NCBI GenBank assembly: GCA_964498425.1
Contig: CAZCGQ010000005.1
Coordinates: 1 to 51,411, forward strand
Reading direction: 5' to 3'
DNA length: 51,411 bases
From: an uncultured Gammaproteobacteria bacterium
Lineage (GTDB): Bacteria; Patescibacteriota; Microgenomatia; UBA12405; JAHJSD01
The stretch's first letter is position 1. Each line of letters opens with the position of its first letter. The notes under the pieces are model-generated. The model searched no databases and had not been told where the DNA came from. It saw only the letters and a list, made by a program, of their open reading frames with translations. Below are positions 48-44,215 of this stretch, piece by piece. The translations under genes were made by a program, and so were the position numbers.

Positions 48-1031
48 TTAGTACTTTTTTGACAAAAAACCCAGTATAAACCTAAGGCCATAAACTAGAT
101 GGGTTAAAAATATGGTTGGGATACTAAGGACCGCAATTAGCAGGTTTCTCGAACAAAAAAAAACCTTTATAAATGCATTGATTAATAATAAGAAATAAAC
201 TAATAAAGCACCGTAATAAATATAAAACAGTGGCCAACAAAGAGCAGACACAACTGGACCAAACACAAGTCCTAGAACAAATAAGCTTGGTATCCAATAA
301 CCTAAACGATTTGATGTTTCAGGAAGAACCTTTGCAAACAACCCCCTTTGAAAGCCATACCGAGCAATTTGCTTTAAATGGGGAATAAAAATTTTCCTCC
401 GGTGATGATAAACAATCACCTCAGGATGGTAAATTATTTCTTTTCCAAGTTTAAAAACTAAATCTTTGCTTAATTTTGTGTCCTCTCCTGGCCAGTAATC
501 AGAATCAAATCCTCCGACATTATTAAAGTCATCTTTGCGAATTACGAAATTAAAAGTCGGATAATCGTCAACTGTTCGACATTTCTCTGTTTGACAGCGG
601 TAAGTACCCGCCCCCCCAGCTCCTAACCAGGTAGACCAAACCCATCCAGATACCTTAGCCAATAGCGGATCATTTGGTGGAGTCAATCCCGGTCCACAAA
701 CAGCGGCAGCTTCTTTATTATTATTTAAAACATCTAGACTAACTTCAAGCCAATTTTCTGCCGGGTAGGCATCATCATCAATGAAGGCTAAAATCTCTCC
801 CTTAGAATGTCTAACTCCCAAATCTCGTTTATCAGCTGGTCCGGCTTGAGGTCCAGAATAAACTATTTTTACCCACCCAGGTAAATTAAACCCGGGAGTA
901 ACTTCATCTGGAACAATAATTAACTCAAAAGACTGGTAAGTCTGTTTTTTTAAAGCAGGAATAATCTCTTTCAGAATATAATTATTTATTTTCTTAACCG
1001 GAACAACAACTGAAACTAGTTTACTTTTCAT
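48..1031 (-). CDS. GT2-family (GT-A fold) glycosyltransferase with hydrophobic C-terminal tail
   Basis: 327-aa ORF. VSVVVPVKK...FELIIVPDE and FIDDDAYP (DxD-type) motifs are typical of GT2. The last ~90 aa form 2-3 hydrophobic helices. Confidence 0.8.
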   Translation of the reverse strand: MKSKLVSVVVPVKKINNYILKEIIPALKKQTYQSFELIIVPDEVTPGFNLPGWVKIVYSGPQAGPADKRDLGVRHSKGEILAFIDDDAYPAENWLEVSLDVLNNNKEAAAVCGPGLTPPNDPLLAKVSGWVWSTWLGAGGAGTYRCQTEKCRTVDDYPTFNFVIRKDDFNNVGGFDSDYWPGEDTKLSKDLVFKLGKEIIYHPEVIVYHHRRKIFIPHLKQIARYGFQRGLFAKVLPETSNRLGYWIPSLFVLGLVFGPVVSALCWPLFYIYYGALLVYFLLLINAFIKVFFCSRNLLIAVLSIPTIFLTHLVYGLRFILGFLSKKY

Positions 1032-1764
1032 AATAGTGAAGAATATTCAGTCGATAGTAAACAGCCAAAGTATCTCTGAGCATACTCCAAATTGTTACTG
1101 CTCGAATACTAGAATAAGCAATCTTTCTGGCATCCATCTTTACTGGTCCATCGTGAATTTTTTTATAACCTAACCGCATTGCTACAGTAAGCATCTCGAT
1201 ATCAAACGCATAAGCTTTAACTAAAAGTTTTGGCAATACATCTTCCAAGACTTCTCGTTTAAAAATCTTTATGCCTCGCTGACAATCGGTTACTCTCAAA
1301 CCAAAAAGCAACTTTGTTAATGTATGGTAACCCCAACTTAAAATTTTCCTTTTTAACGGATAACCCCTAACTCTAGAGGCTGAATGCCGAACAGAACCAA
1401 CAATTACATCTGAGTTATACCACTCCATATGAGCAAGAAGCAAATTGATTCCAGCGGGGTGAATTTCCATTCCAGCATCAATGAAGGCAATTAAATCTCC
1501 CTTTGCCTTTTTCATCCCATATCTGACCGCATGTCCCTTACCTTTATTATTTTTATAGCCAAAAGTTTTCAATCGCTTTAACCTGACTTTTTTAGCCTTG
1601 GAGTAGGTTTTATCGGGATCAATTCCGTCAACAACACAAATTAATTCGTAATCTAGTTCCGCTGCTTTCAAAACGCTATTTATTCGCCGTAAATCTTCCA
1701 CAATTGTCCTTTCCTGTTTATAGGCAGGGACAATAACCGAAATTTTTTCATCAGTTAAGCTCAT
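1021..1764 (-). CDS. GT2-family glycosyltransferase, polyprenyl-phosphate sugar synthase-like
   Basis: 247-aa ORF with ISVIVPAYKQE...ELICVVDG...AFIDAGME. VTDCQRGIKIFKRE resembles the DTQCGFKLF loop of DPM1/ALG5/GtrB-type enzymes. Overlaps the downstream gene by 11 nt. Confidence 0.75.
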   Translation of the reverse strand: MSLTDEKISVIVPAYKQERTIVEDLRRINSVLKAAELDYELICVVDGIDPDKTYSKAKKVRLKRLKTFGYKNNKGKGHAVRYGMKKAKGDLIAFIDAGMEIHPAGINLLLAHMEWYNSDVIVGSVRHSASRVRGYPLKRKILSWGYHTLTKLLFGLRVTDCQRGIKIFKREVLEDVLPKLLVKAYAFDIEMLTVAMRLGYKKIHDGPVKMDARKIAYSSIRAVTIWSMLRDTLAVYYRLNILHYYEK

Positions 1765-3022
1765 AGACTAATTTTAGCACCAAAAATCCACTTAAAAACA
1801 CACCCAGGCTGACTACAATTAAAGAGTTGTTGATAACCATCATTAAAGTCTGATGCCGAACAATAATCAAGATGATTTGGCATACAGCAATACCAGCAGT
1901 TAAGAAACCAACCAATCGATTCTTAATCGAAAGCAAAAATCTAACTAGTAGATTAAAAACAGCTGTCAAACCTAAAAAGATCGAAATCCGGCTTAAGTAT
2001 TGCTCTGCTTGGAGATATTTTTCCCCATAAAGTAAATTAACAAAAAACTTTGGGAACAGGTTAAACCCAATAACACCTGCTAGAACAAAAAAAAGGCAGA
2101 AAACTAAACTTAAGCTAAGTACTTTGATTAGCTTTTCTTTGTTCGACTTATACTTTACAAATAATGGAAAAGCAACTGCTAAAACAGTTGACGACCCAAA
2201 AAAAATCATTTTACCCAAATTAGAACTGGCAGAATAAATTCCGACCAAATTACTTTCAAAAAAATGTCGAACAAAAATAATGTCAGTTGTATATAGTGAA
2301 ACTAATGACAAATTTACTATTAAACTTAAGCCCGAAAACTTAAAGAAATCACTTTTGGGAGTGATAACTTTATCTTGAAAATTTATCGGCCAAAGCTTAC
2401 TCACTAAACCAAAGGCTAAAATTAGTCCAGTAACCTTCCAGACCAACCAACTGCTTAACCCGCCAAGAACCCCTAGACCCAGGTAAAGAAACAAACCGGC
2501 AGACAACAGCTTAGCTAATGTAGCAGATATTGAAACTATCGTCCCCTCAATAAACTTCAACTGGCCACGTAAAGCGGAGGCATATACAGCAGGTAAAAAG
2601 GTAAATATGCTTTGAATTGAAAAGATCAGAAATATCAAAAAATCATCTAAATGTAGAAATTTTCTTAAAATTGGATAAAGTAACAATATTAAAAACCAAT
2701 AGGCAATAGATAATTTCAGTCCGTTTTTTTCTAATCCCCTAATTACTCCTGATATATTTTTTTTCTTAGTTCTAGCAATTCTCTCTACAACCGAATTAGA
2801 ATAACCTCCCACTAGTATGGACTGAAAGTAGGTTAATGAAATTAAACTTTGCAAAAGGCCATATTCATTCGGGTCTAAAAGTCTCCCCGTTACTAAGTGA
2901 TAAAGGTAATTTAAAAAATTACCAATCATTGTTCCGACAAGCATCACAGTTGTTCCTTGAAAGAGCTTATTCTTACTAAGCTGAGATATCTTCTTGAAAT
3001 ATTTAGGCAATCCAATACCCAC
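1751..3022 (-). CDS. Wzx/MOP-type polysaccharide (lipid-linked sugar) flippase-like membrane protein
   Basis: 423 aa, almost entirely hydrophobic helices (about 12) with no soluble domain. Sits between GT2 and GT-C genes. Assignment rests on architecture and context. Confidence 0.6.
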   Translation of the reverse strand: MGIGLPKYFKKISQLSKNKLFQGTTVMLVGTMIGNFLNYLYHLVTGRLLDPNEYGLLQSLISLTYFQSILVGGYSNSVVERIARTKKKNISGVIRGLEKNGLKLSIAYWFLILLLYPILRKFLHLDDFLIFLIFSIQSIFTFLPAVYASALRGQLKFIEGTIVSISATLAKLLSAGLFLYLGLGVLGGLSSWLVWKVTGLILAFGLVSKLWPINFQDKVITPKSDFFKFSGLSLIVNLSLVSLYTTDIIFVRHFFESNLVGIYSASSNLGKMIFFGSSTVLAVAFPLFVKYKSNKEKLIKVLSLSLVFCLFFVLAGVIGFNLFPKFFVNLLYGEKYLQAEQYLSRISIFLGLTAVFNLLVRFLLSIKNRLVGFLTAGIAVCQIILIIVRHQTLMMVINNSLIVVSLGVFLSGFLVLKLVYELN

Positions 3023-4241
3023 GAAGGAAGAGTGCTGCAGCTATAAATTGTAAAACTAAGGAAATATAGGGGACATACTTTGGCAATTTTAGTTTTGCCA
3101 AACTAATAAAACAAGGAAAACAAATTAAAACATACCGCGGCATTGACGTGAAAGTTCCAGTTAATGTCGGCACAATAAAGGCAAAGGCTGAAAAAATTAA
3201 CCAAGACGGTGGCAAATTAGCTTTCAACCATGAATAAAGTAAAAGAAAGACGAACAACAAAACAATTAATAATTCCACCCAAACAATTAAATAAGTATAG
3301 CTGGTAACATCAACCGTAAAGATCATTTTTAAATAACGCCAAAAAACCTGATAAATCAAAACTATTCGATCAGTTGTTCTTTGGGTTTGAAATTGGGGTT
3401 GAGCAGTTGAAAAATAAAAGAAATCACCGGTAGTTCTTTTTAAATAAAGTGAGTAAGTGATTAATCCCCAAGCCCCAGTTAAAATTGAACCTATCCCCCT
3501 AATATGTGGCAGGCGAGATTTTATCAAGTAAACAATATATTTAAGGCTAAATCGGTTTTTTATTGCTTCTTTGGCCGCCACAAATCTTGTCTTCATATCC
3601 CGCTTAGCTTGGGAATCATAGTATTCATATAACAGCCCGGGTACCAAAAAAATCCCGACTACTTTGGTATAAGAAGCAGCACCAGCAACTAATCCAGCAA
3701 ATAACCATCTCTTTTTTTGGGCAAAGTAAAAACTAAGAACAACTAAAAACATGAATATTGCTTCAGTATATGCCGCACCGAAGTAAAATGCGGTTGGGAA
3801 AAAAGTAATATAAATTAAACTTTGCCTTCTTATAGAATCATCAAATCCCTTTTCTTTCATTAACTTATTAAAGAAATAGAGAAAAAGAAGTAAACTCACT
3901 GCTGAAATAATTACTCCACTAATCACATACCCGCCAAAAATCTTCTCAAAAAATCCAATTAAATTTGGATATAATGGAAAAAATGCCTGCTGGAAATGCT
4001 GATACCCGTCACGGGCAATCTTGGCATAATAGAAACCATCAAAGTTTGCCCTTGACCATAACAGTGGTTGATTCGAAACCTTGCCTCCTAGACCTTTTCC
4101 TAAAAAAGTTTCCGTTCTTATTGGTAAAAATTCCGACCCAGCCAGCCAACCTCCAACTAAAACAAGTTGGATTAGAATAAACAGCTTAATGATCAACCGA
4201 GTCATATTCAACATTATAAACTTGGCCCTCTGAAGTTGCAA
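3003..4241 (-). CDS. GT-C-like membrane mannosyltransferase (PIG-V/Gpi18-like)
   Basis: 412 aa, multi-pass. The N-terminal loop ANFDGFYYAKIARDGYQ matches the W/F-D-G-x-x-Y-x-x-I-A-x-x-G-Y signature of PIG-V-type mannosyltransferases. Paralogue of ORF 41947..43041. Confidence 0.6.
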   Translation of the reverse strand: MQLQRAKFIMLNMTRLIIKLFILIQLVLVGGWLAGSEFLPIRTETFLGKGLGGKVSNQPLLWSRANFDGFYYAKIARDGYQHFQQAFFPLYPNLIGFFEKIFGGYVISGVIISAVSLLLFLYFFNKLMKEKGFDDSIRRQSLIYITFFPTAFYFGAAYTEAIFMFLVVLSFYFAQKKRWLFAGLVAGAASYTKVVGIFLVPGLLYEYYDSQAKRDMKTRFVAAKEAIKNRFSLKYIVYLIKSRLPHIRGIGSILTGAWGLITYSLYLKRTTGDFFYFSTAQPQFQTQRTTDRIVLIYQVFWRYLKMIFTVDVTSYTYLIVWVELLIVLLFVFLLLYSWLKANLPPSWLIFSAFAFIVPTLTGTFTSMPRYVLICFPCFISLAKLKLPKYVPYISLVLQFIAAALFLRGYWIA

Positions 4242-4248: not shown

Positions 4249-7200
4249 CTATTTAAAAACGCCTACCACTGCGTCAATTAACCGTCCAAAGAAGCTTTTC
4301 TTTTTAACTGGAGCTGTAACGGCTTCAGGCTTTTCAACCATCTTTGTTGCTGTTGGGTGCTTAACCTCTTCCGTAATCTCCTTTTTGGGTACAACCTCTT
4401 CTGTTAGCCCAACTTCACTGGAATCCGACTCAACTGTAACTGTCTGATCAATATAGCTGGGCTGGCCCTGATATCCGAAACCGCCAACCAAAGCATATCT
4501 ACCATGTATATGGTCAACCACTGCCGCCACCTCATGCCTGTCCTTAATTAAAACAGAATTAACCGGCCGCCATCTTTCATAAGTCGTATCATAGTAATTC
4601 AGTCTCAGCGAATTTTCTGGAATCAGTCCCAAAGCAGTTGGGTCGTACCGAACAATCATTGTAATTGGTTGATTAAAGACACTAAACTCTGCCCCGTTCC
4701 ACCAGGACTTCATTTTAATATCATACGGACTGCCGACAATCCACAGTGGTGCAGTCGGTTTCTCAAACCCAGTCTGTAATTTATTAAACTCAAAATCAGC
4801 ATCCCACATTACTGCGCCGGAAGGAATCATTAAGAAAACCCGATTATCATGGCTTTCAACTATTGACCCGGTATCTTTTGGTGCCATTGGCTTAGAAACA
4901 TCACCTGAAGAAGTAGTTCCTTCACTAGCTCCCTCGCTAACTGCATCGCCTCCACCTGAAGTAGTCGGATCGCTCCCGCTCAAGATAGAAAAGGTGGTAA
5001 AGTGGCTTACCGTAAACGAAATTGTATTGTTCTCAGTATCAATTGTCGCTCCTGTAATTCCCCGCCAAGCGGAAGTGGAATCATCCCAGTAAGCATTATC
5101 AAGCAAATCCTCATCAACACTGCCTAATATATCACTCAAGTAATCATCAGTATAGGGAATAGTTATAGTTACCGGAGTATTAAATGTCGAAGTTAGAGTT
5201 GCCCCAGAATCATCTATTGCCGTAATATCATAACCAATTCCAACTGGAATCGCCTTATTTTGGGCCGACAACTGGGCGGTTGGACTAACAGTTACCGTTA
5301 TGTTATTTCCGGAAGCATTACTCGATGGAGCGATTGCTCCCGCCGGAATTGATAATACAAAACCATTTGATAAGCTGATTTGCTTAGCATTTTGATAATC
5401 AAAGGTTGCAGAGACAGATGAAGGAACTGTGAATGATGCCTTAGCCATAGCTAAATCCTGACTCTTATTGGTTGCTCCCCCCATAACTACTTTTTGAAGT
5501 GGACTCCGATAAAAATCTTCCCCAGATTCATACGTTGCCCGAACATACCAAGTAGCATCCTTTGTTACATTAAGGGTATAATCTCCATCGCTGGTAGTTG
5601 TTTCATTATAGCCCCCATTTTCAGAATAAGCGGTAATAAATCCTCCTTTAGCACTTCCATCCAAAGTTACTGTTCCGGTTATTGTTGCGTCGGATTGCCC
5701 AAACTGTAAATTAACTGTCGCTGGGTTATCTGGACCAATTGTTACTTCTCGGCCTTCAGGATTAATGTATCCCATTGAAGGCGGTAAAAAAGCCTGAACC
5801 TTATAAGTTCCTTCTGGCATAGTTATTGAGTAATTTCCGTTATCATCGCTAGTTTCACCCATCATAAACATTGGCCCGCCCATATCAAAATTTGAGGCCT
5901 TTCGGTTATCAGTTGAAATCCAGGCTCCGGAAAGAGCATTACCACTTGGATCGGTGATCTTACCGGAAACAGTAGAGTTGGCTTCCCGAAGAACAATATT
6001 TTTCACTGCCGGGTTATCAGCAGTATGTGCTGAAGTAACCGTAATTTTACTGTCCTTAGATAATGGTTCTGACATATAATTATTATCCCCAGGATTCACA
6101 AAATAGCCAATTTCCCATGTTCCCTCACATACATTCAAAGTTGTTGACCCGCTTGACAAATCATCGTCATACAACATTTTAAAAACATGTGCACCGGTAG
6201 AGCTTTCAGCAAAAAGATCCATCATTGACAAATTCGTTACTGCATTGCCATCTTCATCAACTAAATTTATTTTTATTCTCTTGTTGTTTGGTTTAACCGT
6301 TACTGTTACAGTTTTCGTTTCACCGGAAGTCAAAGTTGCTGACTTCATTCCAGCCGAAGTATACCCGGATGTATCTGGCGGGAAATCAACTCCAACATCA
6401 TAAGTACCCGCCGGCACCTTAATTGTAAACGTACTATTGCTTATCGGAGCACCCATTCCAATTCCCATCATCGGCCCAACACCGGAATCGGCAAAGGCAT
6501 AGCCATAAATCCCCGTAACTCCATTCCCGTCTTCATCAACAAGTGCACCATTAATAGTTGCATCTGCTAATTGCACTTCAAAATTTCTATCCGAATAGGT
6601 TTGTCCATTAGTTGAAGTGGTTACATTTACTTGCTCAGGACTGCCAGTATAAATGTAATTAGCTGCATCGGAGTAACCTCCCATCATTGCCGGATCAAGC
6701 ATAACATTAACCATCCACATCCCAGGCGAAACATACAGCGAATATGCTCCATTGGCATCCGTTTCCGCTTCATTGAAGCCACCTCCACCCGGGCCGCCCA
6801 TTCCCGGCCCAGCAAATTCATCAAACTTCCTTGACATTTTAAACCCTTCTACCCTTACCGCACTTCTACCCTCTCCTGAATCGTATTGGCCGTTATCGTT
6901 TTCATCAGACCAAACACGGCCACTTATAACATCCCTTCTCTTAATCATCGAAATTTCTCCGACATTATAGGGAGAGCTCGTCGAGTTTACCGTCACCGTT
7001 TGAGCCTGGGGCGAACCTAATGACTTATCATTGCTCCAATTTTGAACCATTAAACTGTATGTACCAGCTGGAACACGAACATCAAAGCTTCCAGATTCAT
7101 CCAAATTATCCCAACCTCCGCAACCATCCTTCGATCTAATTTCAACCTGTCCATCTGTAAAAGGATTACCGTCAGAATCAACTATAGTCCCATAAATCCT

Positions 7201-8800: not shown

Positions 8801-8830
8801 ATTACACCACTATATGTATATTACTGTCAA
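8801..8830 (-). promoter_or_regulatory. Candidate sigma70-type promoter for the giant surface-protein gene
   Basis: Minus-sense TTGACA (8830-8825), an 18-nt spacer, then TGTAAT (8806-8801), about 30 nt upstream of the ATG at 8772. The -35 box overlaps the stop codon of the GT4 gene. Confidence 0.3.
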
Positions 8831-11585: not shown

Positions 11586-11638
11586 ATCCCAAGGTTCAAA
11601 CCTAATCAACCTTCAAGGTTAATCTGTACCTGAACCTT
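11586..11638. repeat. REP-like double-hairpin element, copy 3
   Basis: atcccaaggttcaaacctaatcaaccttcaaggttaatctgtacctgaacctt. Supplies the last codons (QGSGTD) and the stop of the GT2 ORF 11619..12518. Confidence 0.8.
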
Positions 11639-19431: not shown

Positions 19432-19436
19432 TACAA

Positions 19437-39691: not shown

Positions 39692-41149
39692 TTAATTTGT
39701 GTGGACTAATTTGTAAACTTGAACTTTTTCAATCTGCCATTCATTGGCAATTTTTGCCCAGCCAAAGGCGGCAATTTGCCATTTTTCATGACCAATCGGG
39801 TTGCAATCAACCTTCCCCCAAGGTTCACAAATTACAAATAATTGCTCCGTCATCTTATTATGCAAATCAACCAAATTATTTTCTTTCTTCCGCGTTAGAA
39901 AGTAGCGGTAGGGATCATCATAATTCTGTTCAGCAATTAAACCCAGAGCAAACTCCTCATTATTGCTCTTTTCCTCAATAAACTTAGCAACGTTTCTTGC
40001 CCGTCGAAGTTGATAAACCGGTTCTGTCCAGCCATGCCAATTTCCAAGCATAATTCCGGCAATTACCAGACCAACCAACGGCCCAAAAAGTTTGATCTTA
40101 ACCAAACCTAAGCTAATTAATAAAATTAAACTCGGGTATAAAAAAAGATAGTAATGAGCATAGACGTGCTGTTTATAGTTCCCCAAACCAACCAAACCAA
40201 TCACCAGCCAAAATCCTATTAACCAGCCCGCTTGTTTTTTCTTTGTTTTTACAAGTCCTAAAGCTAAAACCGGCAAAAGAAGTAGGGCATATTTCCAACT
40301 ATCTTGGTAGAGAATTGTCTGAGCAGTTAATTGATTAAACAGTTTTGGTAAATCCGTAAAGCCCTTATAAACTTTTAAATTCACCGTTGTTTGGCGAACT
40401 GTAAAAAATTCTTTAAATGCGTTGAAGTTTGCAAAATTATGCTTTAAATCAAAAATCAGCAGGGGCGACATCAGAAGAAGAAAAATACCAATACTCAAAA
40501 TTCCAAATTTCAAAAGGTGTCTCGTTTCCTTTTTCTTTGACTGTCGAACCAGCCTAATCAGTTTTACCAGCACTGCCGTTCCTACAATCGGAAAAAGCAG
40601 TAGGCCTAAATAATGAGAATTCAAGACCAAGGCCAAGCAAACCCCCAACCAAATTAAACTCTTATAGTCATCTTTTTTCCATACCCTCCAGGTAAACCAG
40701 GCGGTAAGTAAGCTTAGCAAGGGCATAACATTAGGATTCCAAGAAAAAGTTGAATATTTAATCATCACTGGCGAAAAACCAGCCAATAAGGCTGAAATTA
40801 AACCAACCTTATTCCTAAATAATTTTTTACCAATTAGCCAAATAAAATAAACACTAGCTACACCCACAAAGGCATTAAAAACTGCTGGGCCAATTGGGTT
40901 AAAATTAGCAAGCAGTAAAGAAGGAGCAATTAAATAATAATACCAAGGCCCAAGATACATATTGCCAATTGAAGTTTGCGGACCAATAAACATTAGATCG
41001 CCTTGTTTTAAAAACCGGCGAACAATCAAAACATCCCGGCCTTGATCGCCTAAAAACTCCATATAAGCAGGAAGGCGATAAAGTCGGAGAAAAACAGACG
41101 CAGCCAAAATTAAACTTAATACCCAGTGTTTTCTAACAAACTTAATCAC
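39692..41149 (-). CDS. GT-C membrane glycosyltransferase, ArnT-like
   Basis: 485 aa, multi-pass. N-terminal loop PAYMEFLGDQGRDVLIVRRFL, with a C-terminal soluble domain. Overlaps the upstream synthase gene by 4 nt. Confidence 0.6.
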   Translation of the reverse strand: MIKFVRKHWVLSLILAASVFLRLYRLPAYMEFLGDQGRDVLIVRRFLKQGDLMFIGPQTSIGNMYLGPWYYYLIAPSLLLANFNPIGPAVFNAFVGVASVYFIWLIGKKLFRNKVGLISALLAGFSPVMIKYSTFSWNPNVMPLLSLLTAWFTWRVWKKDDYKSLIWLGVCLALVLNSHYLGLLLFPIVGTAVLVKLIRLVRQSKKKETRHLLKFGILSIGIFLLLMSPLLIFDLKHNFANFNAFKEFFTVRQTTVNLKVYKGFTDLPKLFNQLTAQTILYQDSWKYALLLLPVLALGLVKTKKKQAGWLIGFWLVIGLVGLGNYKQHVYAHYYLFLYPSLILLISLGLVKIKLFGPLVGLVIAGIMLGNWHGWTEPVYQLRRARNVAKFIEEKSNNEEFALGLIAEQNYDDPYRYFLTRKKENNLVDLHNKMTEQLFVICEPWGKVDCNPIGHEKWQIAAFGWAKIANEWQIEKVQVYKLVHTN

Positions 41150-41871
41150 TTTTTAATCTTCAGTTTAAACCAAAGCCTAACTAAATCCTTCAGCCCAGAA
41201 GCAATAACATCAAAATCTGCTCCGGTTGCCGCCCCATGTTCTCGAGCAAAATGGCTGACCCCAACCTCTTCAATTTTAAAACCAGCGTCCTTAGCTTTAA
41301 TCAGAAACTCCGAGGTAATAAATGGACCCCGCTCAGCCTCCAATTGCGGAATAGTTTCAACCACTTCCTTTTTAAACAGTTTAAAACCACAGTCAATATC
41401 CTTTACCCACAAACCAAAAAGTAAAAACACTGCTATCTCCCATACCTTAGAACCCCATTTTCGATAAAAAGGAACCTTTCGGTCCAGATAATAACCAATG
41501 ACTAAGTCTGCCTTGGTATCTTTCTGCTTAATAATAAATCTGTCAAGTTCAGAGAAATCAAACTGACCGTCAGAATCGGTAAAGGCAATCCATTTAAATT
41601 TGGAGTTATACATTCCCGACTTTAAAGCCGCTCCGTAACCCCGGTTAGGGTTGTGAGTAATCAGCCGAACCTGGTCGGGATAATCCTTAATGATTTCTTT
41701 GGCAATTTTTCCAGTCTTATCCTTACTGCCGTCGTCAACAATAATAACTTCCCACTGGTCAGCAGTATCTTCCAAAACATCAATTGCCTTCAAAACCGTA
41801 TTTTTAAGGTTTTTTTCTTCGTTGTAGGCTGGAAAGAAAACCGACAATTCAGATATTAGCTTCTTAGGCAT
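41146..41871 (-). CDS. GT2 polyprenyl-phosphate glycosyltransferase (GtrB/ArnC/DPM1-like)
   Basis: 241 aa with LSVFFPAYNEEKNL...VIIVDDGSKDKT...FTDSDGQ...DIDCGFKLFKKE. Confidence 0.8.
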   Translation of the reverse strand: MPKKLISELSVFFPAYNEEKNLKNTVLKAIDVLEDTADQWEVIIVDDGSKDKTGKIAKEIIKDYPDQVRLITHNPNRGYGAALKSGMYNSKFKWIAFTDSDGQFDFSELDRFIIKQKDTKADLVIGYYLDRKVPFYRKWGSKVWEIAVFLLFGLWVKDIDCGFKLFKKEVVETIPQLEAERGPFITSEFLIKAKDAGFKIEEVGVSHFAREHGAATGADFDVIASGLKDLVRLWFKLKIKK

Positions 41872-41888: not shown

Positions 41889-41912
41889 AAGTACAAAATT
41901 ACTAAATTATAT

Positions 41913-41938: not shown

Positions 41939-41946
41939 GTGAAAAG

Positions 41947-43041
41947 ATGAATAGAAACACAAAAAATATTTTATTTTTATCGGTAATAACAGTAATTACC
42001 ACACTAGCAGTTTGGCTTCCTTTTTCACTACGCAACCAAATGCCAAAGGTTTTTGCTAATTTTGATGGTCCCAATTACCTTGTCATCGCTAAATGCGGCT
42101 ATGACCCGCAGTGCATCCGCACAACCTTTTCCTTGCCCCAACCAGTTGAATACTACCCCGCTCACTTTCCCGGTTATCCCTTACTAATTTCAGCCTTCGA
42201 TCAAATACTTCCCGGTTGGTGGGCAATGCTCATTGCTAATCTTTTCACCACTTTAACTATGGTAACAATCATATATTTATTGCTTAAACAACTAGAAGTA
42301 AAATCTGCTTTCTGGCTGTCTCTTCTCAGCTTGTTTTTACCAGCTCGTATGCTCGTTTTAAGAACAGTGGGGGCACCGGAAACACTCTTTATCACCCTTC
42401 TTCTTGCCTCAATCTACTTTTACCGCCAAAAAAAGTATTGGCCGGCCGGAATTTTTCTAGCTTTTGCTCAACTAACCAAAACTCCGGCAATTTTGTTATT
42501 TATAGCCTACTTTATTGACACTTTTTTAAGTGTTAAATGGTCAATGAAAAAATGGCTAAATAAAACTCCGCTTTTATTAGGCCCTGCCGTCATTCTCCCC
42601 CTCTTTCTTGTTTTTCAAAACCAAACCGGCAATTTTCTCGCCTATTTCAACTCTGGCGATAACTTTCATCTTGTCCCAATTCCTTTTCAAACCTTTGTTT
42701 CATCACGTTCATGGCTGGGCGACTTCTGGCTAGAAGATATCGTTTACGTCTACCTAATTGGAGGTTTAGCCATCACTCAGCTTTGGAAAAAATATCACGG
42801 AAAAATTATTGCCATTTTTCCAACTATCTTCTATATGGCAACACTCTTTGTCGCTCACCGCGATATTTCCCGCTATTCTGCCCCACTCTACTTTTTCTAT
42901 TTACTTGCCTTTAAGAATTTTTTGAAGAAGAAGGAATTTAGAATTGTCTTCTTTATTTTGTTACCGGCAGTTTATTTCTTTGCCATTAACTTCATCAACT
43001 ACAATGTCGCCCCAATCGCCGACTGGACACCGTATAAATAG
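41947..43041 (+). CDS. GT-C-like membrane mannosyltransferase (PIG-V/Gpi18-like)
   Basis: 364 aa, multi-pass. FANFDGPNYLVIAKCGYDP matches the same loop motif as ORF 3003..4241. One of only two plus-strand genes in the island; the other is the RAYT transposase gene (10517..11242). Confidence 0.55.
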   Translation: MNRNTKNILFLSVITVITTLAVWLPFSLRNQMPKVFANFDGPNYLVIAKCGYDPQCIRTTFSLPQPVEYYPAHFPGYPLLISAFDQILPGWWAMLIANLFTTLTMVTIIYLLLKQLEVKSAFWLSLLSLFLPARMLVLRTVGAPETLFITLLLASIYFYRQKKYWPAGIFLAFAQLTKTPAILLFIAYFIDTFLSVKWSMKKWLNKTPLLLGPAVILPLFLVFQNQTGNFLAYFNSGDNFHLVPIPFQTFVSSRSWLGDFWLEDIVYVYLIGGLAITQLWKKYHGKIIAIFPTIFYMATLFVAHRDISRYSAPLYFFYLLAFKNFLKKKEFRIVFFILLPAVYFFAINFINYNVAPIADWTPYK

Positions 43042-43076
43042 CCACAACTCACTAATCACTAGCCACTAGCCGCTAT
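43042..43076. repeat. 7-bp tandem array (CCACTAG-type x5) between convergent genes
   Basis: ccacaac tcactaa tcactag ccactag ccgctat. Fills the 31-nt gap between the two stop codons and places stop triplets at 7-nt spacing on both strands. Confidence 0.8.
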
Positions 43077-44215
43077 TTATTTTTCCAAATAACCTTGTTG
43101 TACATCAACCAGTTGTAAGGGAGAACCAGAAAGACAATAATAAACGGCAAATATACCTGCCGGTACTGCGGCCCAAAAGCAAAGGTCAATAAAGAACCGG
43201 CAACAGTCTGGATTACTAAGGCCCCGGCTGAAGTAAAGTTAAACTGTAAAAATTTGCTGATGACCTTACTAATTGTTTTAAATTGCGTATCCTTGAAAGT
43301 CCAAAGATTATTTAGGATAAAATTTGAAATAATTGCCAACTCAGTTGCTAAGCCCCACACTGCCCACTCTGGAAAACCGGCATTAGCAAAAACAGCTACT
43401 CCGGTAGCATTAACTACATATCCAATGGTCCCAACCGTCCCAAATTTGAAAAATTTCTGAGTAACTTTATCGTGCCACCTAAGGAGAAAAACCGTCCGAA
43501 ATATATCCTTGGCTGTCTGGCCGGTAATTTTCGATTCTCCCGCCTTCCTCAGCTGAAACTCCAAAGGAATCTCCTTTACTTTCGCTCCCAACTGAACCAT
43601 TTTATATAAAAATTCCAATTTATATCCAAACTGCCTTGAGTAGAGATCATCCATCTCCATTTTGTCAACAAACCCTTTCACCCGAGAAGCCTTTAACCCA
43701 GTGGTCGGATCAGTAATCTTAAAAAATTGTTTAAATGGGAAAAACAAGACAAATCTAGCAACCAAGCCACCGACTTCCGAAAAGAAAACGCGCTTGAATC
43801 CCCAACCCCTGGGGTTAGACCCGCCCTTAATCTTCCTTGACCCTAAAACATAATCATAGCCATTGTCAATTTCCTTTAATAAAATAGGAATTCGATCGGG
43901 TGGATGTTGAAAATCACCATCAAACTCAATCAAAACATCGGCGTTCATCTTATCCATTGCATAACGAAAACCCTTAACGTAAGCCGCACCTATTCCCTCT
44001 TTTTTCTTCTCGACGAAAACTTCCAAGTTGTCAAATTTTTTCTGTTTTTCTTTAACAATATCCGCTGTCCCATCAGGAGATTGGGCATCTACAACAAGAA
44101 GTTTACATTCCCAGCCAATTGCTTTTGGAAAGGTTTTGTTGAATAGGTGTTCAACCATCTCTCCGATTGTTTCCGCTTCATTGTAAGTGGGAATAACAAC
44201 TACAGCAGTTTTCAT
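43073..44215 (-). CDS. GT2 polyprenyl-phosphate mannosyl/glycosyltransferase fused to a GtrA-like membrane domain
   Basis: 380 aa. N-terminal VVVIPTYNEAETI...VVDAQSPDGT...EFDGDFQHP is DPM1/Ppm1-like. C-terminal FFKFGTVGTIGYVVN...ELAIISNFILNNLWTF is the GtrA-family signature. Confidence 0.85.
   Translation of the reverse strand: MKTAVVVIPTYNEAETIGEMVEHLFNKTFPKAIGWECKLLVVDAQSPDGTADIVKEKQKKFDNLEVFVEKKKEGIGAAYVKGFRYAMDKMNADVLIEFDGDFQHPPDRIPILLKEIDNGYDYVLGSRKIKGGSNPRGWGFKRVFFSEVGGLVARFVLFFPFKQFFKITDPTTGLKASRVKGFVDKMEMDDLYSRQFGYKLEFLYKMVQLGAKVKEIPLEFQLRKAGESKITGQTAKDIFRTVFLLRWHDKVTQKFFKFGTVGTIGYVVNATGVAVFANAGFPEWAVWGLATELAIISNFILNNLWTFKDTQFKTISKVISKFLQFNFTSAGALVIQTVAGSLLTFAFGPQYRQVYLPFIIVFLVLPYNWLMYNKVIWKNK

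What the first reader, a model, noticed from the sequence alone, without database searches (positions are those of the whole stretch)
48..44215. 44-kb single-strand glycosylation super-island dominated by GT-C membrane transferases
Between 48 and 44215 I count the following.
- 11 GT2 ORFs, four of which carry the DPM1/ALG5/GtrB-type polyprenyl-phosphate sugar synthase loop.
- 2 GT4 ORFs.
- 2 Wzx/MOP-like flippases.
- About 15 large multi-pass membrane ORFs with GT-C-like architecture: 6 PMT-like, 2 ArnT-like, 2 ALG6/8- or Gpi18-like, 2 PIG-V-like, 1 YfhO, 1 YfhO-related and 1 unassigned.
- One 1507-aa secreted repeat protein.

All but two genes are on the minus strand, and many overlap by 4-35 nt. 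I could not recognise nucleotide-sugar synthesis genes, an initiating phosphoglycosyltransferase (WecA/WbaP type), Wzz/Wza or an O-antigen ligase, so this does not read like a classical O-antigen or capsule locus. The content argues for extracytoplasmic glycosylation of a protein or wall polymer using lipid-linked monosaccharides. The diversity of transferases, roughly one GT-C per 3 kb, is unusual.
Basis: partly seen in the sequence, partly recalled or inferred. Interest (0 to 1): 0.8.

Follow-up and report, generated by a model that had tools for sequence, protein, structure and literature searches.

The report
Conserved CPR membrane-glycosyltransferase gene supercluster
A tiny-genome bacterium of the Microgenomates group (candidate phyla radiation) devotes 44 kb to one sugar-attaching gene cluster with 15 membrane glycosyltransferases, and because relatives keep the same cluster it is probably the assembly line for an unknown cell-surface glycan.

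Summary
Pfam reproduces the counts for 48-44215: 11 GT2, 2 GT4, 2 Wzx/MOP flippases, 15 multi-pass membrane ORFs and a 1507-aa secreted repeat protein. All but two genes are on the minus strand.

- Eight membrane ORFs pass Pfam PMT/PMT_2 thresholds.
- Two are YfhO/PTPS-related.
- Two are Gpi18-like.
- One passes GT87 marginally.
- One (41947-43041) stays unassigned.
- One (32576-34228) has no Pfam family; its confident model is closest to STT3/PglB/AglB oligosaccharyltransferases but lacks WWDYG.

Four GT2s resemble DPMS/ArnC/GtrB. One matches Pyrococcus DPMS over its full length (E 8e-46).

The window holds no initiating phosphoglycosyltransferase, Wzy/ligase, Wzz/Wza or sugar-nucleotide gene.

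It is not a foreign island. GC is flat, the organism is a Shapirobacteria-like Microgenomate, and relatives at about 55% identity keep the gene order, 15 GT-C-like genes and collinear orthologues of at least four of the five tandem PMT paralogues.

Best reading: a two-phase lipid-linked glycan line. Cytoplasmic GT2/GT4 enzymes build it, Wzx flips it, and many GT-C enzymes extend it outside using polyprenyl-phosphate sugars. The acceptor is unknown.

This is a new variant of known systems, of moderate to high interest.

The parts
48..1031 (-). GT2 glycosyltransferase with about 3 C-terminal TM segments (327 aa)
   Evidence: Pfam Glycos_transf_2 E 1.2e-12. Crude hydropathy count gives 3 TM at 243-297. 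NCBIfam best hits are MftF/EpsD-like, below cut-off.
1021..1764 (-). Soluble DPMS/ArnC/GtrB-like GT2 (247 aa), putative polyprenyl-phosphate sugar synthase
   Evidence: Pfam GT2 covers 1-167/168. 27-28% identical to 41146-41871 and 38925-39674. NCBIfam PgfS/ArnC/PpgS/AglJ hits are long but below cut-off.
1751..3022 (-). Wzx/MOP-family flippase 1 (423 aa)
   Evidence: Pfam Polysacc_synt_3 E 1.3e-15 and Polysacc_synt E 4e-13. About 10 TM.
3003..4241 (-). GT87-like membrane protein (412 aa), weak GT-C assignment
   Evidence: Pfam GT87 at 25.6 bits against a cut-off of 25. NCBIfam AZOBR_p60025 and LA_3751 hits are weak. No PDB sequence match. hhalign against the PMT profile is not significant.
4249..8772 (-). 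1507-aa secreted or anchored repeat protein, a lineage-specific surface protein and possible but unsupported acceptor
   Evidence: CarboxypepD_reg E 7.8e-28, 3 stretches. N-terminal hydrophobic segment; Ser+Thr 18.6%. N-x-S/T sequons 21 against 16.1 +/- 3.5 in shuffles. Only one relative (90% identity) in the metagenome scan.
8827..9915 (-). GT4 glycosyltransferase (362 aa)
   Evidence: Pfam Glycos_transf_1 E 3.9e-32 and Glyco_transf_4.
9951..10400 (-). Small ORF with a weak GreA/GreB C-terminal match (not glycosylation)
   Evidence: Pfam GreA_GreB E 9.5e-5, below cut-off.
10517..11242 (+). IS200-type Y1 transposase that interrupts the minus-strand run
   Evidence: Pfam Y1_Tnp E 1.4e-10. A 36% identical homologue lies in L005.
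11619..12518 (-). GT2 (299 aa), SunS/TIGR04283-like subgroup
   Evidence: Pfam GT2 E 3.7e-23. Paralogue of 31627-32574 and 29925-30722 at 28-30%.
12522..12908 (-). 23S-rRNA-IVS four-helix-bundle protein
   Evidence: Pfam 23S_rRNA_IVP E 6.9e-34.
12945..21086 (-). Array of five tandem PMT/PMT_2-type GT-C genes: 12945-14486, 14483-16180, 16170-17801, 17767-19431, 19455-21086
   Evidence: All pass Pfam PMT or PMT_2 cut-offs. They are 29-34% identical to each other. An Asp in the first loop is invariant and Glu32 after it is nearly invariant. Four have collinear orthologues at 54-56% identity in L083; 16170-17801 was not tested directly.
21073..22356 (-). Gpi18-like (COG5542-type) GT-C membrane protein (427 aa)
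   Evidence: No Pfam hit itself. Relatives at 45-59% identity are named Gpi18-like mannosyltransferase, and some hit ALG3, GT87, PIG-U or PF26314. hhalign to the PMT profile gives 93% probability. It is fused to its upstream GT2 in P0267.
22344..23153 (-). GT2 (269 aa) paired with the Gpi18-like gene
   Evidence: Pfam GT2 E 2.4e-27. In P0267 (697 aa) a GT2 47% identical to this ORF is fused to a GT-C 52% identical to 21073-22356.
23150..24601 (-). PMT_2-type GT-C (483 aa)
   Evidence: Pfam PMT_2 E 1.1e-14. About 9 TM.
24598..25491 (-). GT2 (297 aa) overlapping the downstream PMT_2 gene by 4 nt
   Evidence: Pfam GT2 E 1.8e-26. Overlap.
25500..27743 (-). YfhO-family GT-C (747 aa)
   Evidence: Pfam YfhO C-terminal hit at 43.8 bits against a cut-off of 28.5. 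29% identical over its full length to a YfhO-annotated protein in L082.
27747..28904 (-). Gpi18-like paralogue (385 aa)
   Evidence: 28% identical, E 1.3e-25, to 21073-22356. No Pfam or NCBIfam hit. Not homologous to the gene in the same slot in L082.
28882..32574 (-). Cytoplasmic glycosyltransferase block: GT4 28882-29952, then GT2 29925-30722, GT2 30719-31633, GT2 31627-32574
   Evidence: Pfam. No TM segments. The same block follows the 550-family gene in L082, L084 and L085.
32576..34228 (-). Orphan GT-C (550 aa) with an oligosaccharyltransferase-like fold and a small C-terminal globular domain
   Evidence: No Pfam or NCBIfam hit for the ORF, no STT3 hit in any of 41 relatives, and no PDB sequence match. 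AF2 pLDDT 89.8, pTM 0.91. Foldseek top hits are STT3/PglB/AglB at E 2.5e-9 to 1e-6, TMq about 0.5, and the AglB C-terminal domain 3vu0. Invariant H40, D41, W44, H45 and E152, and nearly invariant E274 and D277; no WWDYG. 1703 clusters in the 50% representative library.
34225..35670 (-). Wzx/MOP-family flippase 2 (481 aa), overlapping the orphan GT-C by 4 nt
   Evidence: Pfam Polysacc_synt_3 E 2.5e-44. Adjacency is conserved in L082, L084, L085 and L086. Wzx and a 550-like domain lie in one 1639-aa ORF, P0401.
35652..37382 (-). YfhO/PTPS-related GT-C (576 aa), highly conserved in Microgenomates
   Evidence: No Pfam hit itself. Relatives at 45-88% identity hit PF10131 and PF09586. AF2 pLDDT 86.2, pTM 0.90. 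Foldseek finds OST, ArnT, AftA, AftD and DPY19 at E about 1e-4 to 1e-2.
37388..38950 (-). PMT-type GT-C (520 aa)
   Evidence: Pfam PMT at 25.1 bits against a cut-off of 22.7.
38925..39674 (-). Soluble DPMS/ArnC/GtrB-like GT2 (249 aa), overlapping the downstream PMT gene
   Evidence: Pfam GT2 covers 1-167/168, E 1.6e-27. NCBIfam PgfS, ArnC and DolP-hexose transferase hits are below cut-off. 34% identical to 41146-41871.
39692..41149 (-). PMT_2-type GT-C (485 aa)
   Evidence: Pfam PMT_2 E 1.3e-13. A 69% identical orthologue lies in L002.
41146..41871 (-). Soluble DPMS/ArnC/GtrB-like GT2 (241 aa), first gene of the 29-kb run, overlapping the PMT_2 gene by 4 nt
   Evidence: PDB sequence matches: ArnC E 4.4e-16 over 6-215, PfDPMS 4e-11, GtrB (5EKP) 4e-10. 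NCBIfam ArnC and DolP-hexose transferase hits are below cut-off.
41947..43041 (+). Unassigned multi-pass membrane protein (364 aa), possibly GT-C- or EpsG-like
   Evidence: PMT_2 at 24.9 bits against a cut-off of 26.1, and EpsG E 2.9e-4, both below cut-off. NCBIfam AZOBR_p60025 E 5e-13, below cut-off. No PDB match. hhalign not significant. A 76% identical orthologue lies in L002.
43073..44215 (-). Membrane-embedded DPMS-type polyprenyl-phosphate hexose synthase: GT2 plus GtrA/DPMS TM domain (380 aa)
   Evidence: Pfam GT2 plus GtrA_DPMS_TM. Full-length match to Pyrococcus furiosus DPMS 5MLZ, E 8e-46, residues 5-356 against 26-353, with DGDFQHPP aligned to DADLQHPP.

Best explanation
**What it is.** This is the main cell-surface glycan assembly locus of a Shapirobacteria-like Microgenomate, a CPR/Patescibacteria bacterium with a monoderm-type envelope. 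It is inherited vertically, not acquired. I read it as a two-phase, lipid-carrier-based assembly line.

**Phase 1, cytoplasmic (inferred).** The soluble block of three GT2s and one GT4 (32574 to 28882) builds an oligosaccharide on a polyprenyl phosphate carrier. The window holds no WecA/WbaP-type initiator. The first sugar is therefore added either by an enzyme encoded elsewhere or, as in haloarchaeal Agl pathways, by a DPMS/AglJ-like GT2 acting directly on polyprenyl monophosphate.

**Flipping (inferred).** The Wzx/MOP protein 34225-35670 moves the intermediate across the membrane.

**Phase 2, extracytoplasmic (inferred from family membership and gene pairing).**
- Four DPMS/ArnC/GtrB-like GT2s (43073-44215, 41146-41871, 38925-39674, 1021-1764) charge polyprenyl phosphate with single sugars.
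- About 13-15 GT-C enzymes then use those donors outside the membrane to transfer, extend and branch the glycan.
- The orphan OST-fold GT-C (32576-34228) overlaps Wzx by 4 nt, and the highly conserved YfhO-like 35652-37382 lies directly upstream of Wzx. They are the best candidates for the step that takes the flipped oligosaccharide and transfers or polymerises it.
- The five ancient PMT-type paralogues and the Gpi18-, YfhO- and GT87-like enzymes each add a specific residue or linkage.

**Product.** I think a wall- or membrane-anchored heteroglycan is the most likely product, built with mycobacterial LM/LAM/AG-like logic. Glycosylation of surface proteins is the main alternative.

**Shown versus inferred.** Shown: family and fold membership, gene pairing and fusions, and conservation. 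Inferred: donors, order of steps, acceptor and product.
For: **Family and fold.**
- Pfam counts for all classes.
- 43073-44215 matches PfDPMS over its full length, E 8e-46, with the DxDxQHPP motif conserved.
- 41146-41871 matches ArnC, DPMS and GtrB structures by sequence.
- The eight PMT-type proteins share an invariant first-loop Asp.
- Confident models of two no-Pfam ORFs hit only GT-C structures at significant E-values.
- Relatives of 21073-22356 are Gpi18/ALG3/GT87-type.

**Coupling.**
- GT2 and GT-C genes overlap by 4-26 nt.
- Natural fusions exist: GT2 with a Gpi18-like GT-C (P0267), GT2 with PMT (L086, 731 aa), and Wzx with a 550-family domain (P0401).
- Wzx is followed by a 550-family gene in five loci.

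**Conservation.**
- The closest TsaD relatives whose records are labelled consistently are Microgenomates and Shapirobacteria.
- L002 keeps the right end of the locus syntenic.
- L082 and L083 keep the order with 15 GT-C-like genes in 37 kb.
- L084 and L085 keep the core.
- L086 and L087 keep the GT2-PMT_2-GT2-PMT-576-like module.
- Four of the five tandem PMT paralogues have collinear orthologues at 54-56% identity, against 27-35% between paralogues. Each copy therefore appears to be kept for a distinct role.
- GC is flat at 0.34-0.43 across the locus and its flanks.

**Known mechanisms of this kind.**
- CsbB/YfhO teichoic acid glycosylation (PMC5836110).
- GtrB/PgtC2 and Pgf protein glycosylation (PMC12041528).
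- The Haloferax Agl pathway: AglJ initiates on Dol-P, and AglD, AglR and AglS handle the final mannose (PMC3871713).
Against: - No experiment and no glycan chemistry is available.
- No initiating enzyme, sugar-nucleotide genes, LCP-type ligase or clear polymerase lies in the window, so a full pathway cannot be drawn.
- Only four monosaccharide-lipid synthase candidates serve about 15 GT-Cs. Three of them lack TM helices, and none reaches an NCBIfam equivalog cut-off.
- Two GT-C assignments are weak.
- Wzx might flip a monosaccharide-lipid, as proposed for AglR, rather than an oligosaccharide.
- Operon structure is inferred only from spacing. The promoter and terminator scans were uninformative.
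Confidence: 0.6

Rival explanations
1. General protein O-glycosylation system. The PMT-type GT-Cs, fed by DPMS-like GT2s, O-glycosylate Ser/Thr of secreted and surface proteins such as pilins, S-layer proteins or the 1507-aa repeat protein. This would resemble actinobacterial Pmt/Ppm1 or streptococcal GtrB/PgtC2 and Pgf systems.
For: - Eight ORFs pass Pfam PMT/PMT_2 thresholds, with a conserved first-loop Asp followed in most by Glu.
- GT2 and GT-C genes are paired.
- A Ser/Thr-rich (18.6%) secreted 1507-aa protein lies inside the locus.
- A known precedent is PMC12041528.
Against: - Known protein O-glycosylation systems of this type use one or two GT-Cs (my own knowledge), not 15 separately conserved ones.
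- The 1507-aa protein is absent from the relatives' loci and has only one near-identical relative.
- PMT_2 also covers ArnT-type lipid and polymer glycosyltransferases, so the family name does not specify a protein acceptor.
Confidence: 0.2
2. LLO-type en bloc glycosylation. An oligosaccharide is built on the lipid carrier, perhaps initiated AglJ-style on the monophosphate. Wzx flips it, GT-Cs extend it outside, and the orphan OST-fold enzyme 32576-34228 transfers it en bloc to protein or wall. That enzyme would be a new class of bacterial oligosaccharyltransferase, with logic parallel to the archaeal Agl and eukaryotic ER pathways.
For: - The Foldseek top 20 hits are STT3, PglB, AglB and the C-mannosyltransferase DPY19, with E from 2.5e-9 to 1e-6.
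- The C-terminal domain matches AglB 3vu0.
- The OST match is about 5 logs stronger than for the control GT-C 35652-37382.
- There is a 4-nt overlap with Wzx, the adjacency is conserved, and a Wzx fusion exists.
- A four-GT cytoplasmic block lies directly downstream.
- No phosphoglycosyltransferase is needed if initiation is AglJ-like (PMC3871713). An AglJ NCBIfam hit exists for 43073-44215, but far below cut-off.
Against: - There is no WWDYG motif in the conserved C-terminal domain.
- None of 41 family members hits Pfam STT3, and there is no PDB sequence match.
- TM-scores of about 0.5 with high rmsd indicate only general GT-C similarity.
- The control shows that orphan GT-Cs tend to hit OSTs first anyway.
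- N-sequons are not enriched in the neighbouring 1507-aa protein.
Confidence: 0.15
3. Ordinary Wzx/Wzy-dependent exopolysaccharide or capsule locus whose initiator, polymerase and ligase are encoded elsewhere or hidden among the unassigned membrane ORFs. The GT-Cs would serve only as side-chain decorators, as with the streptococcal GacI/GacL side-chain enzymes (my own knowledge).
For: - There are two Wzx genes, soluble GT2s and GT4s.
- 41947-43041 has a weak EpsG (Wzy-like) hit and an AZOBR_p60025 'glycopolymer formation' hit.
Against: - No phosphoglycosyltransferase, Wzy_C, Wzz, Wza or LCP lies in 51 kb or among the genes listed for about 100 kb of relatives' loci.
- GT-Cs make up 52% of the locus length and are each conserved, which is not what accessory decorators look like.
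Confidence: 0.1
4. Many of the membrane ORFs are not glycosyltransferases at all, for example transporters or structural membrane proteins, and the cluster is a looser collection of envelope genes.
For: - Four ORFs had no Pfam hit, and two others only marginal or below-threshold hits.
- hhalign of single sequences to the PMT profile was often insignificant.
Against: - Eight ORFs pass PMT/PMT_2 thresholds and one passes YfhO.
- Both modelled no-Pfam ORFs hit only GT-C structures at significant E-values, with transporters appearing only at probability 0.15 or less.
- Relatives of the others carry GT-C Pfam domains.
- Fusions to GT2 domains exist.
Confidence: 0.03

Closest known systems
Three-component Gtr-type glycosylation (GtrB-like GT2, small flippase and a GT-C), e.g. 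B. subtilis CsbB/YfhO and Listeria GtlA/GtlB teichoic acid glycosylation (PMC5836110)
   Same: - A GT2 polyprenyl-phosphate sugar synthase sits next to a GT-C such as YfhO or a PMT_2-type enzyme.
- Transfer takes place outside the membrane.
- The window has YfhO-family genes and four such GT2s.
   Different: - Here there are about 15 GT-Cs of at least five families in one conserved locus.
- There is no free-standing GtrA; a GtrA-like TM domain occurs only fused to 43073-44215.
- Three synthase candidates lack TM helices.
- A Wzx plus multi-GT oligosaccharide module is embedded in the locus.
- The acceptor is unknown.
Streptococcal GtrB/PgtC2 and Pgf protein O-glycosylation of Ser/Thr-rich regions (PMC12041528); actinobacterial Pmt/Ppm1 O-mannosylation (own knowledge)
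   Same: A DPMS/GtrB-type donor synthase works with a PMT-like GT-C acting on extracytoplasmic acceptors.
   Different: - Those systems use one or two GT-Cs.
- No conserved acceptor protein lies in this locus.
- None of the window's GT2s reaches the PgfS equivalog cut-off.
Mycobacterial LM/LAM and arabinogalactan assembly (Ppm1, PimE, MptA-C, EmbA-C, AftA-D; own knowledge; AftA, AftB, AftD, EmbB and PimE structures appear among the fold hits)
   Same: - Many distinct GT-Cs extend a glycan outside the membrane from polyprenyl-phosphate monosaccharides, after a cytoplasmic phase and flipping.
- This is the only well-known bacterial case with a comparable number of GT-Cs.
   Different: - There is no sequence-level orthology.
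- In mycobacteria the genes are scattered over a 4.4-Mb genome, whereas here they sit in a single cluster of 37-44 kb.
- No decaprenyl-arabinose pathway genes were seen.
- The organism is a reduced-genome CPR bacterium.
Haloferax volcanii Agl N-glycosylation cluster (AglJ, G, I, E, AglB, AglD, AglR, AglS; PMC3871713)
   Same: - No phosphoglycosyltransferase is needed, because a DPMS-like GT2 starts the glycan on the lipid monophosphate.
- Several soluble GTs extend it.
- A Wzx-like flippase (AglR) is present.
- A separate Dol-P-Man synthase plus a membrane mannosyltransferase add the last sugar outside.
- The genes are clustered.
   Different: - The OST-fold protein here lacks WWDYG and does not match Pfam STT3.
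- AglJ and DolP-hexose transferase equivalog cut-offs are not reached.
- There are far more GT-Cs.
- The organism is a bacterium with peptidoglycan (own knowledge of CPR; PMC6744442 argues for a Gram-positive-like envelope).
Eukaryotic ER lipid-linked oligosaccharide pathway (ALG1/2/11, Rft1, DPM1/ALG5, ALG3/9/12/6/8/10, STT3; own knowledge; ALG3, ALG9, ALG12 and STT3 structures appear among the fold hits)
   Same: The overall logic matches: cytoplasmic GTs, a MOP-type flippase candidate, Dol-P-sugar synthases, a series of GT-Cs of both structural classes, and an OST-fold enzyme.
   Different: This is an analogy only. There is no orthology evidence, no WWDYG, and the acceptor is unknown.

Membership tests
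GT-C superfamily, PMT/PMT_2 (GT39/GT83-type), for 8 ORFs | Sequence match to the PMT or PMT_2 profile above the curated cut-off | tested here: met
   12945-14486, 14483-16180, 16170-17801, 17767-19431, 19455-21086, 23150-24601, 37388-38950 and 39692-41149 all exceed the PMT or PMT_2 gathering scores.
GT-C superfamily, PMT/PMT_2 (GT39/GT83-type), for 8 ORFs | Multi-pass topology with a conserved acidic residue (Asp, usually Asp-Glu) in the first extracytoplasmic loop | tested here: met
   A crude hydropathy count gives 4-9 TM segments. D31 is invariant in all 8 paralogues and in 11 sequences including orthologues, with E32 nearly invariant.
GT-C superfamily, PMT/PMT_2 (GT39/GT83-type), for 8 ORFs | Use of a polyprenyl-phosphate sugar donor and the identity of the acceptor | not testable with these tools
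   This needs biochemistry.
Oligosaccharyltransferase STT3/PglB/AglB, for ORF 32576-34228 | GT-C fold with a C-terminal extracytoplasmic globular domain resembling solved OSTs | tested here: met
   The AF2 model has pLDDT 89.8. Foldseek gives STT3, PglB and AglB at E 2.5e-9 to 1e-6, TMq 0.45-0.55, and the AglB C-terminal domain 3vu0 at TMt 0.50.
Oligosaccharyltransferase STT3/PglB/AglB, for ORF 32576-34228 | Sequence membership in the STT3 family (Pfam PF02516) | tested here: not met
   None of 41 family members hits STT3 at E <= 1. The family profile has no PDB sequence match at E <= 10.
Oligosaccharyltransferase STT3/PglB/AglB, for ORF 32576-34228 | WWDYG motif at the start of the C-terminal domain | tested here: not met
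   No WWD-type motif appears in the conservation map of residues 400-550. The conserved stretches are YPY(N/D), YE(S/T)TAYVSAFSG and MNLDITG.
Oligosaccharyltransferase STT3/PglB/AglB, for ORF 32576-34228 | Conserved acidic residues in EL1, EL2 and EL5 forming the metal site | tested here: inconclusive
   D41 and E152 are invariant, and E274 and D277 nearly invariant. All lie in predicted loops. No 3-D superposition could be run.
Polyprenyl-phosphate glycosyltransferase (DPMS/GtrB/ArnC type), for 43073-44215 | Full-length homology to a characterised enzyme, including the DxD catalytic motif and the C-terminal TM domain | tested here: met
   PfDPMS 5MLZ, E 8e-46, residues 5-356 against 26-353. 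DGDFQHPP aligns to DADLQHPP. Pfam finds GtrA_DPMS_TM.
Polyprenyl-phosphate glycosyltransferase (DPMS/GtrB/ArnC type), for 41146-41871, 38925-39674 and 1021-1764 | Catalytic-domain homology to ArnC, DPMS or GtrB over the whole domain, plus membrane association | tested here: inconclusive
   41146-41871 matches ArnC at E 4.4e-16 over 6-215, DPMS at 4e-11 and GtrB at 4e-10. NCBIfam hits are long but far below equivalog cut-offs. No TM helices are predicted. They sit next to GT-C genes.
YfhO family, for 25500-27743 and 35652-37382 | Match to the YfhO or PTPS_related profiles and a GT-C fold | tested here: met
   25500-27743 hits YfhO at 43.8 bits against a cut-off of 28.5 and is homologous over its full length to a YfhO-annotated protein. 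35652-37382 has relatives that hit PF10131 and PF09586, and its model hits only GT-C structures at significant E-values.
Classical Wzx/Wzy-dependent O-antigen or capsule locus | Initiating phosphoglycosyltransferase (WecA/MraY-type or WbaP-type) in the locus | tested here: not met
   No Glycos_transf_4 or Bac_transf hit in any ORF of 150 aa or more in the 51-kb window, nor among the genes listed for the relatives' loci.
Classical Wzx/Wzy-dependent O-antigen or capsule locus | Wzy polymerase or WaaL-type ligase, plus Wzz/Wza | tested here: not met
   No Wzy_C, Wzz or Poly_export hits. Only a below-threshold EpsG hit for 41947-43041.
Classical Wzx/Wzy-dependent O-antigen or capsule locus | Wzx flippase and soluble GTs | tested here: met
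   Two Polysacc_synt_3 proteins, two GT4s and seven non-DPMS GT2s.
Horizontally acquired genomic island | Deviant composition, mobility genes at the borders, and patchy presence in relatives | tested here: not met
   GC is 0.34-0.43 with no step at the borders. There is no tRNA. The only mobility gene is an internal IS200 transposase. The order is conserved in L002, L082-L085 and partly in L086 and L087.

The most novel reading that the evidence does not exclude
Microgenomates (CPR bacteria) carry a eukaryote/archaea-like lipid-linked oligosaccharide pathway.
- A DPMS/AglJ-type GT2 initiates it in place of a phosphoglycosyltransferase.
- GT2/GT4 enzymes extend it in the cytoplasm.
- A MOP-family protein flips it.
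- A series of GT-C enzymes, fed by polyprenyl-P-sugars, extends it outside the membrane.
- A previously undescribed OST-fold GT-C family lacking WWDYG transfers it en bloc. This is the 32576-34228 family, with at least 1,700 clusters at 50% identity; one member is fused to Wzx and many carry a secreted N-terminal domain.

That would be a new class of bacterial oligosaccharyltransferase and a bacterial counterpart of the ER-lumen phase of N-glycan assembly.
Probability: 0.15. Interest if true: 0.85.

Novelty: new variant of a known kind. Interest (0 to 1): 0.6.

Why it matters
CPR/Patescibacteria have small genomes, of the order of 1 Mb, and sparse metabolism, and those cultivated so far live attached to other cells (general knowledge). 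Their surface chemistry is essentially unknown.

This locus shows that a Shapirobacteria-like lineage spends 44 kb on extracytoplasmic glycosylation. The lineage keeps 15 separate GT-C enzymes with collinear orthologues. That implies a complex, specific surface glycan likely to matter for envelope integrity and for host or phage recognition.

The finding gives concrete targets:
- four candidate lipid-sugar synthases;
- an ancient five-gene PMT array;
- two highly conserved GT-C families without Pfam coverage.

One of those families has an oligosaccharyltransferase-like fold and is genetically welded to a Wzx flippase. If that enzyme transfers glycans en bloc, it would add a new branch to OST evolution and a possible glycoengineering tool.

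In my limited literature searches I found no paper describing this locus. The closest statement found is that many Microgenomates-enriched families are uncharacterised membrane proteins (PMC6744442).

Tried and rejected
- hhalign of single unassigned ORFs against a profile of the eight PMT paralogues. Only 21073-22356 gave a useful score (93%). 32576-34228, 35652-37382, 25500-27743, 41947-43041 and 3003-4241 were insignificant. A2 against A1 was also weak. I replaced this with homologue annotation and structure prediction.
- PDB sequence searches for the 550 and 576 family profiles, 3003-4241, 41947-43041 and the N-terminal domain of the long 550-family forms. All found nothing.
- The idea that the 1507-aa protein is the dedicated acceptor. 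It is absent from the relatives' loci, only one 90% identical relative was found, and sequons are not enriched. I downgraded it.
- The idea that this is a horizontally acquired island. I rejected it.
- The idea that the 550-aa ORF is a bona fide OST. It fails the WWDYG and STT3-profile tests. A control GT-C also hits OSTs first, although about 5 logs more weakly.
- Promoter and terminator consensus scans, run to support a single operon. Counts were close to shuffled expectation or only modestly above it, and the terminator-like sites lay inside genes.
- tRNA and Rfam scans. Both found nothing.
- Literature searches for a prior description of GT-C clusters in CPR. No direct hit.
- A full orthology table by script. 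It was lost when the Python machine failed, so I replaced it with pairwise comparisons. The slot holding 27747-28904 is not orthologous in L082.

Full report
**1. What is there**

The window has a uniformly low GC content of 0.34-0.43 and negative GC skew throughout. It is densely packed with ORFs, almost all on the minus strand.

- eleven GT2;
- two GT4;
- two Polysacc_synt/MOP (Wzx-type) flippases;
- fifteen multi-pass membrane proteins, by a crude hydropathy count;
- a 1507-aa protein with an N-terminal hydrophobic segment and CarboxypepD_reg repeats.

Three small non-glycosylation ORFs also lie inside:
- an IS200-type Y1 transposase at 10517-11242 (+);
- a weak GreA-like ORF;
- a 23S-rRNA-IVS four-helix-bundle protein.

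The membrane ORFs add up to 7,667 residues, about 52% of the 44 kb. That is one per 2.9 kb. From 41871 down to 12945, 22 genes follow one another with overlaps of 4-35 nt or gaps of at most 23 nt.

No ORF hits WecA/MraY-type or WbaP-type initiators, Wzy_C/O-antigen ligase, Wzz, Wza, LCP or sugar-nucleotide enzymes.

**2. Classifying the transferases**

*GT2 groups.* All-against-all BLAST splits the GT2s into three groups.
- Group 1: 1021-1764, 38925-39674, 41146-41871 and 43073-44215.
- Group 2: 11619-12518, 29925-30722 and 31627-32574.
- Group 3: 22344-23153, 24598-25491 and 30719-31633, with 48-1031 loosely attached.

- 43073-44215 carries a GtrA/DPMS TM domain.
- It aligns over its whole length with Pyrococcus furiosus dolichol-phosphate mannose synthase (5MLZ, E 8e-46). 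DGDFQHPP aligns to DADLQHPP.
- 41146-41871 matches ArnC (E 4.4e-16 over residues 6-215), PfDPMS and GtrB.
- The three short members have no TM helix.
- None of the four reaches an NCBIfam equivalog cut-off. The sugar specificity is therefore unknown.

*Membrane ORFs.*
- Eight pass the PMT or PMT_2 gathering scores. They share an invariant Asp, usually followed by Glu, in the first loop.
- 25500-27743 is a YfhO-family protein.
- 3003-4241 passes GT87 only marginally.
- 41947-43041 is below threshold for PMT_2 and EpsG. Both of these stay weak after further tests.

*The four ORFs with no Pfam hit.*
- 21073-22356 and its paralogue 27747-28904 (28% identity) belong to a family spread through Microgenomates. 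JGI names its members Gpi18-like mannosyltransferase. Some members hit ALG3, GT87 or PIG-U.
- 35652-37382 belongs to a family conserved at 45-88% identity. Its members hit PTPS_related and YfhO. Its AF2 model (pLDDT 86.2, pTM 0.90) matches only GT-C structures at significant E-values.
- 32576-34228 has no Pfam, NCBIfam or PDB sequence match. Among 41 relatives only scattered weak Pfam hits occur, none to STT3.
- Its model is confident (pLDDT 89.8, pTM 0.91).
- The model's best PDB matches are the catalytic subunits of oligosaccharyltransferases: yeast and human STT3, PglB and AglB, at E 2.5e-9 to 1e-6 and TMq about 0.5. It also matches the isolated AglB C-terminal domain.
- DPY19, AftA, ALG12 and ArnT follow further down the list.

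**3. Is the 550-aa protein an oligosaccharyltransferase?**

Its fold says 'closest to OST', but two defining features fail.
- No member of the family matches the STT3 profile.
- The conserved C-terminal domain has no WWDYG motif.

Conserved acidic residues do sit in the predicted loops. D41 lies in an invariant HD..WH motif and E152 is also invariant; E274 and D277 are nearly invariant. I could not superpose the structures.

The control model of 35652-37382 also hits OSTs first. Its hits are about five orders of magnitude weaker and sit on a par with ArnT and AftA. So part of the OST signal is generic to orphan GT-Cs. I therefore do not file the 550-aa protein as an OST. It is an uncharacterised GT-C family with an OST-like architecture.

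The family is large: 1,703 clusters at E <= 1e-3 in the 50% representative library. Many members are 1,000-1,160 aa, with a signal peptide and a soluble N-terminal domain of about 450 aa and unknown family.

**4. Genetic coupling**

- The Wzx gene 34225-35670 overlaps the 550-aa gene by 4 nt.
- The same adjacency is seen in L082, L084, L085 and, at 36% identity, in the distant L086.
- One database protein (P0401, 1639 aa) joins a Wzx 46% identical to the window's with a 550-family domain.
- P0267 (697 aa) fuses orthologues of the GT2 22344-23153 and the Gpi18-like 21073-22356.
- L086 has a 731-aa GT2+PMT fusion.
- DPMS-like GT2 genes overlap the PMT-type genes that follow them: 41146-41871 with 39692-41149, and 38925-39674 with 37388-38950.

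**5. Organism and conservation**

The flanking housekeeping genes are a Sua5-TsaE fusion, TsaD and a MacB/FtsX ABC pair. The closest TsaD relatives that carry a consistent taxonomic label are Microgenomates and Shapirobacteria MAGs, at 56-60% identity. A genus-level relative (L002, 75%) is labelled 'uncultured Gammaproteobacteria', as are L003 and L008. NCBI places Shapirobacteria in the Microgenomates group of Patescibacteria.

| Locus | What is kept |
|---|---|
| L002 | Right end of the locus syntenic up to its contig end |
| L082 + L083 (one 110-kb JGI contig, orthologues at about 55% identity) | Same order over 37 kb, with 15 GT-C-like genes |
| L084, L085 | The core |
| L086 (Microgenomates), L087 (Blackburnbacteria) | The GT2-PMT_2-GT2-PMT-576-like module, followed by inserted defence genes |

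Four of the five tandem PMT paralogues have collinear orthologues at 54-56% identity, while paralogues are only 27-35% identical. 16170-17801 was not compared directly. The duplications are therefore old and each copy is maintained.

This is a vertically inherited core locus, not an island. By contrast, the 1507-aa protein has a single 90% identical relative and no counterpart in the relatives' loci. Its N-x-S/T sequons are not enriched.

**6. Mechanism**

The best-supported reading is a lipid-carrier assembly line with two phases.

- *Cytoplasmic phase.* The conserved block of three GT2s and a GT4, directly downstream of the 550-aa gene, fits cytoplasmic assembly of an oligosaccharide. Wzx would flip it. 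The flanking 550-aa and 576-aa GT-Cs would take the flipped intermediate.
- *Extracytoplasmic phase.* The four DPMS/ArnC/GtrB-like GT2s would supply polyprenyl-phosphate monosaccharides to the many GT-Cs, which extend and branch the glycan outside the membrane.

This is the logic of several known systems:
- CsbB/YfhO teichoic acid glycosylation (PMC5836110);
- streptococcal GtrB/PgtC2 and Pgf systems (PMC12041528);
- the AglD/AglR/AglS step of Haloferax N-glycosylation (PMC3871713);
- mycobacterial LM/LAM/AG assembly, which matches in the sheer number of GT-Cs (own knowledge).

The missing initiator could be encoded elsewhere. Alternatively it could be unnecessary, if the glycan starts on the lipid monophosphate as with AglJ (PMC3871713).

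The number of separately conserved GT-Cs argues for a defined, complex glycan rather than simple protein O-mannosylation. I favour a wall- or membrane-anchored heteroglycan, but a protein acceptor cannot be excluded. Everything beyond family membership, pairing and conservation is inference.

**7. Comparison, novelty and verdict**

All component types are known. Four things are new:
- the scale, with 15 GT-Cs of at least five families in one apparent operon-like run;
- its conservation in a reduced-genome CPR lineage;
- the embedding of a Wzx and multi-GT module;
- two conserved GT-C families without Pfam coverage, one OST-like and welded to Wzx.

My literature searches found no description of this locus. 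Meheust et al. note only that many Microgenomates-enriched families are uncharacterised membrane proteins and that the CPR envelope looks Gram-positive-like (PMC6744442).

I rate it a new variant of a known kind, with interest about 0.6. The most novel reading that remains open is an LLO-type pathway with a new class of en bloc transferase. I give that a probability of about 0.15.

Noticed in passing
window 10517-11242 (+), with a 376-nt gap to 11619: An IS200-type Y1 transposase ORF is inserted in the only sizeable break of the minus-strand glycosylation run. A 36% identical homologue lies near TsaD in L005.
   Followed up: partly
window 44733-45806 (+): A single ORF fuses Sua5/TsaC (residues 22-200) with TsaE (215-343), two t6A tRNA-modification proteins. 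The fusion is matched over its full length in L002-L005, so it is a lineage trait.
   Followed up: partly
window 12522-12908 (-): A 23S-rRNA-intervening-sequence-type four-helix-bundle protein (Pfam E 6.9e-34) sits inside the glycosyltransferase run, between a GT2 and the PMT array.
   Followed up: no
P0361, P0367, P0379, P0385 and similar proteins (relatives of window 32576-34228): Many members of the 550-aa GT-C family are 1,000-1,160 aa long. They carry a signal peptide and a soluble N-terminal domain of about 450 aa (motifs NPVRG, WLLR.D, DQFSTD.YQ.WG) with no Pfam or PDB sequence match. This could be a glycan-processing domain.
   Followed up: partly
L086 13204-18495; L087 11972-21797: In two distant Microgenomates, defence genes (type I R-M, SIR2_2, SduA_C, PDDEXK_1, DUF3800, N6_N4 methylase) are inserted at the same point of the locus, right after the 576-like GT-C gene. 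This suggests an insertion hot spot.
   Followed up: no
L002, L003, L008 (records CAYSLZ010000011.1, CAYIUX010000004.1, CAYXSV010000038.1): These MAG records are titled 'uncultured Gammaproteobacteria'. They share 59-85% protein identity, and in L002 and L008 gene order, with this Microgenomates-type window. The taxonomic labels are probably wrong.
   Followed up: partly
window 44242-44766 (-): A DUF192 (COG1430) protein with one TM/signal segment directly follows the DPMS-type gene on the same strand, and is kept there in L002. A possible accessory role was not examined.
   Followed up: no
L086 1-3576: The locus of a distant Microgenomate contains a 731-aa GT2+PMT fusion protein and a 767-aa protein with a spermine-synthase-like domain.
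   Followed up: no
window 50353-51399 (-): An ORF with fn3, purple-acid-phosphatase-N and bacterial Ig-like repeats next to a MacB/FtsX ABC pair, 85% identical in L008. It is likely another surface protein. The reading frame may continue beyond the window end.
   Followed up: no
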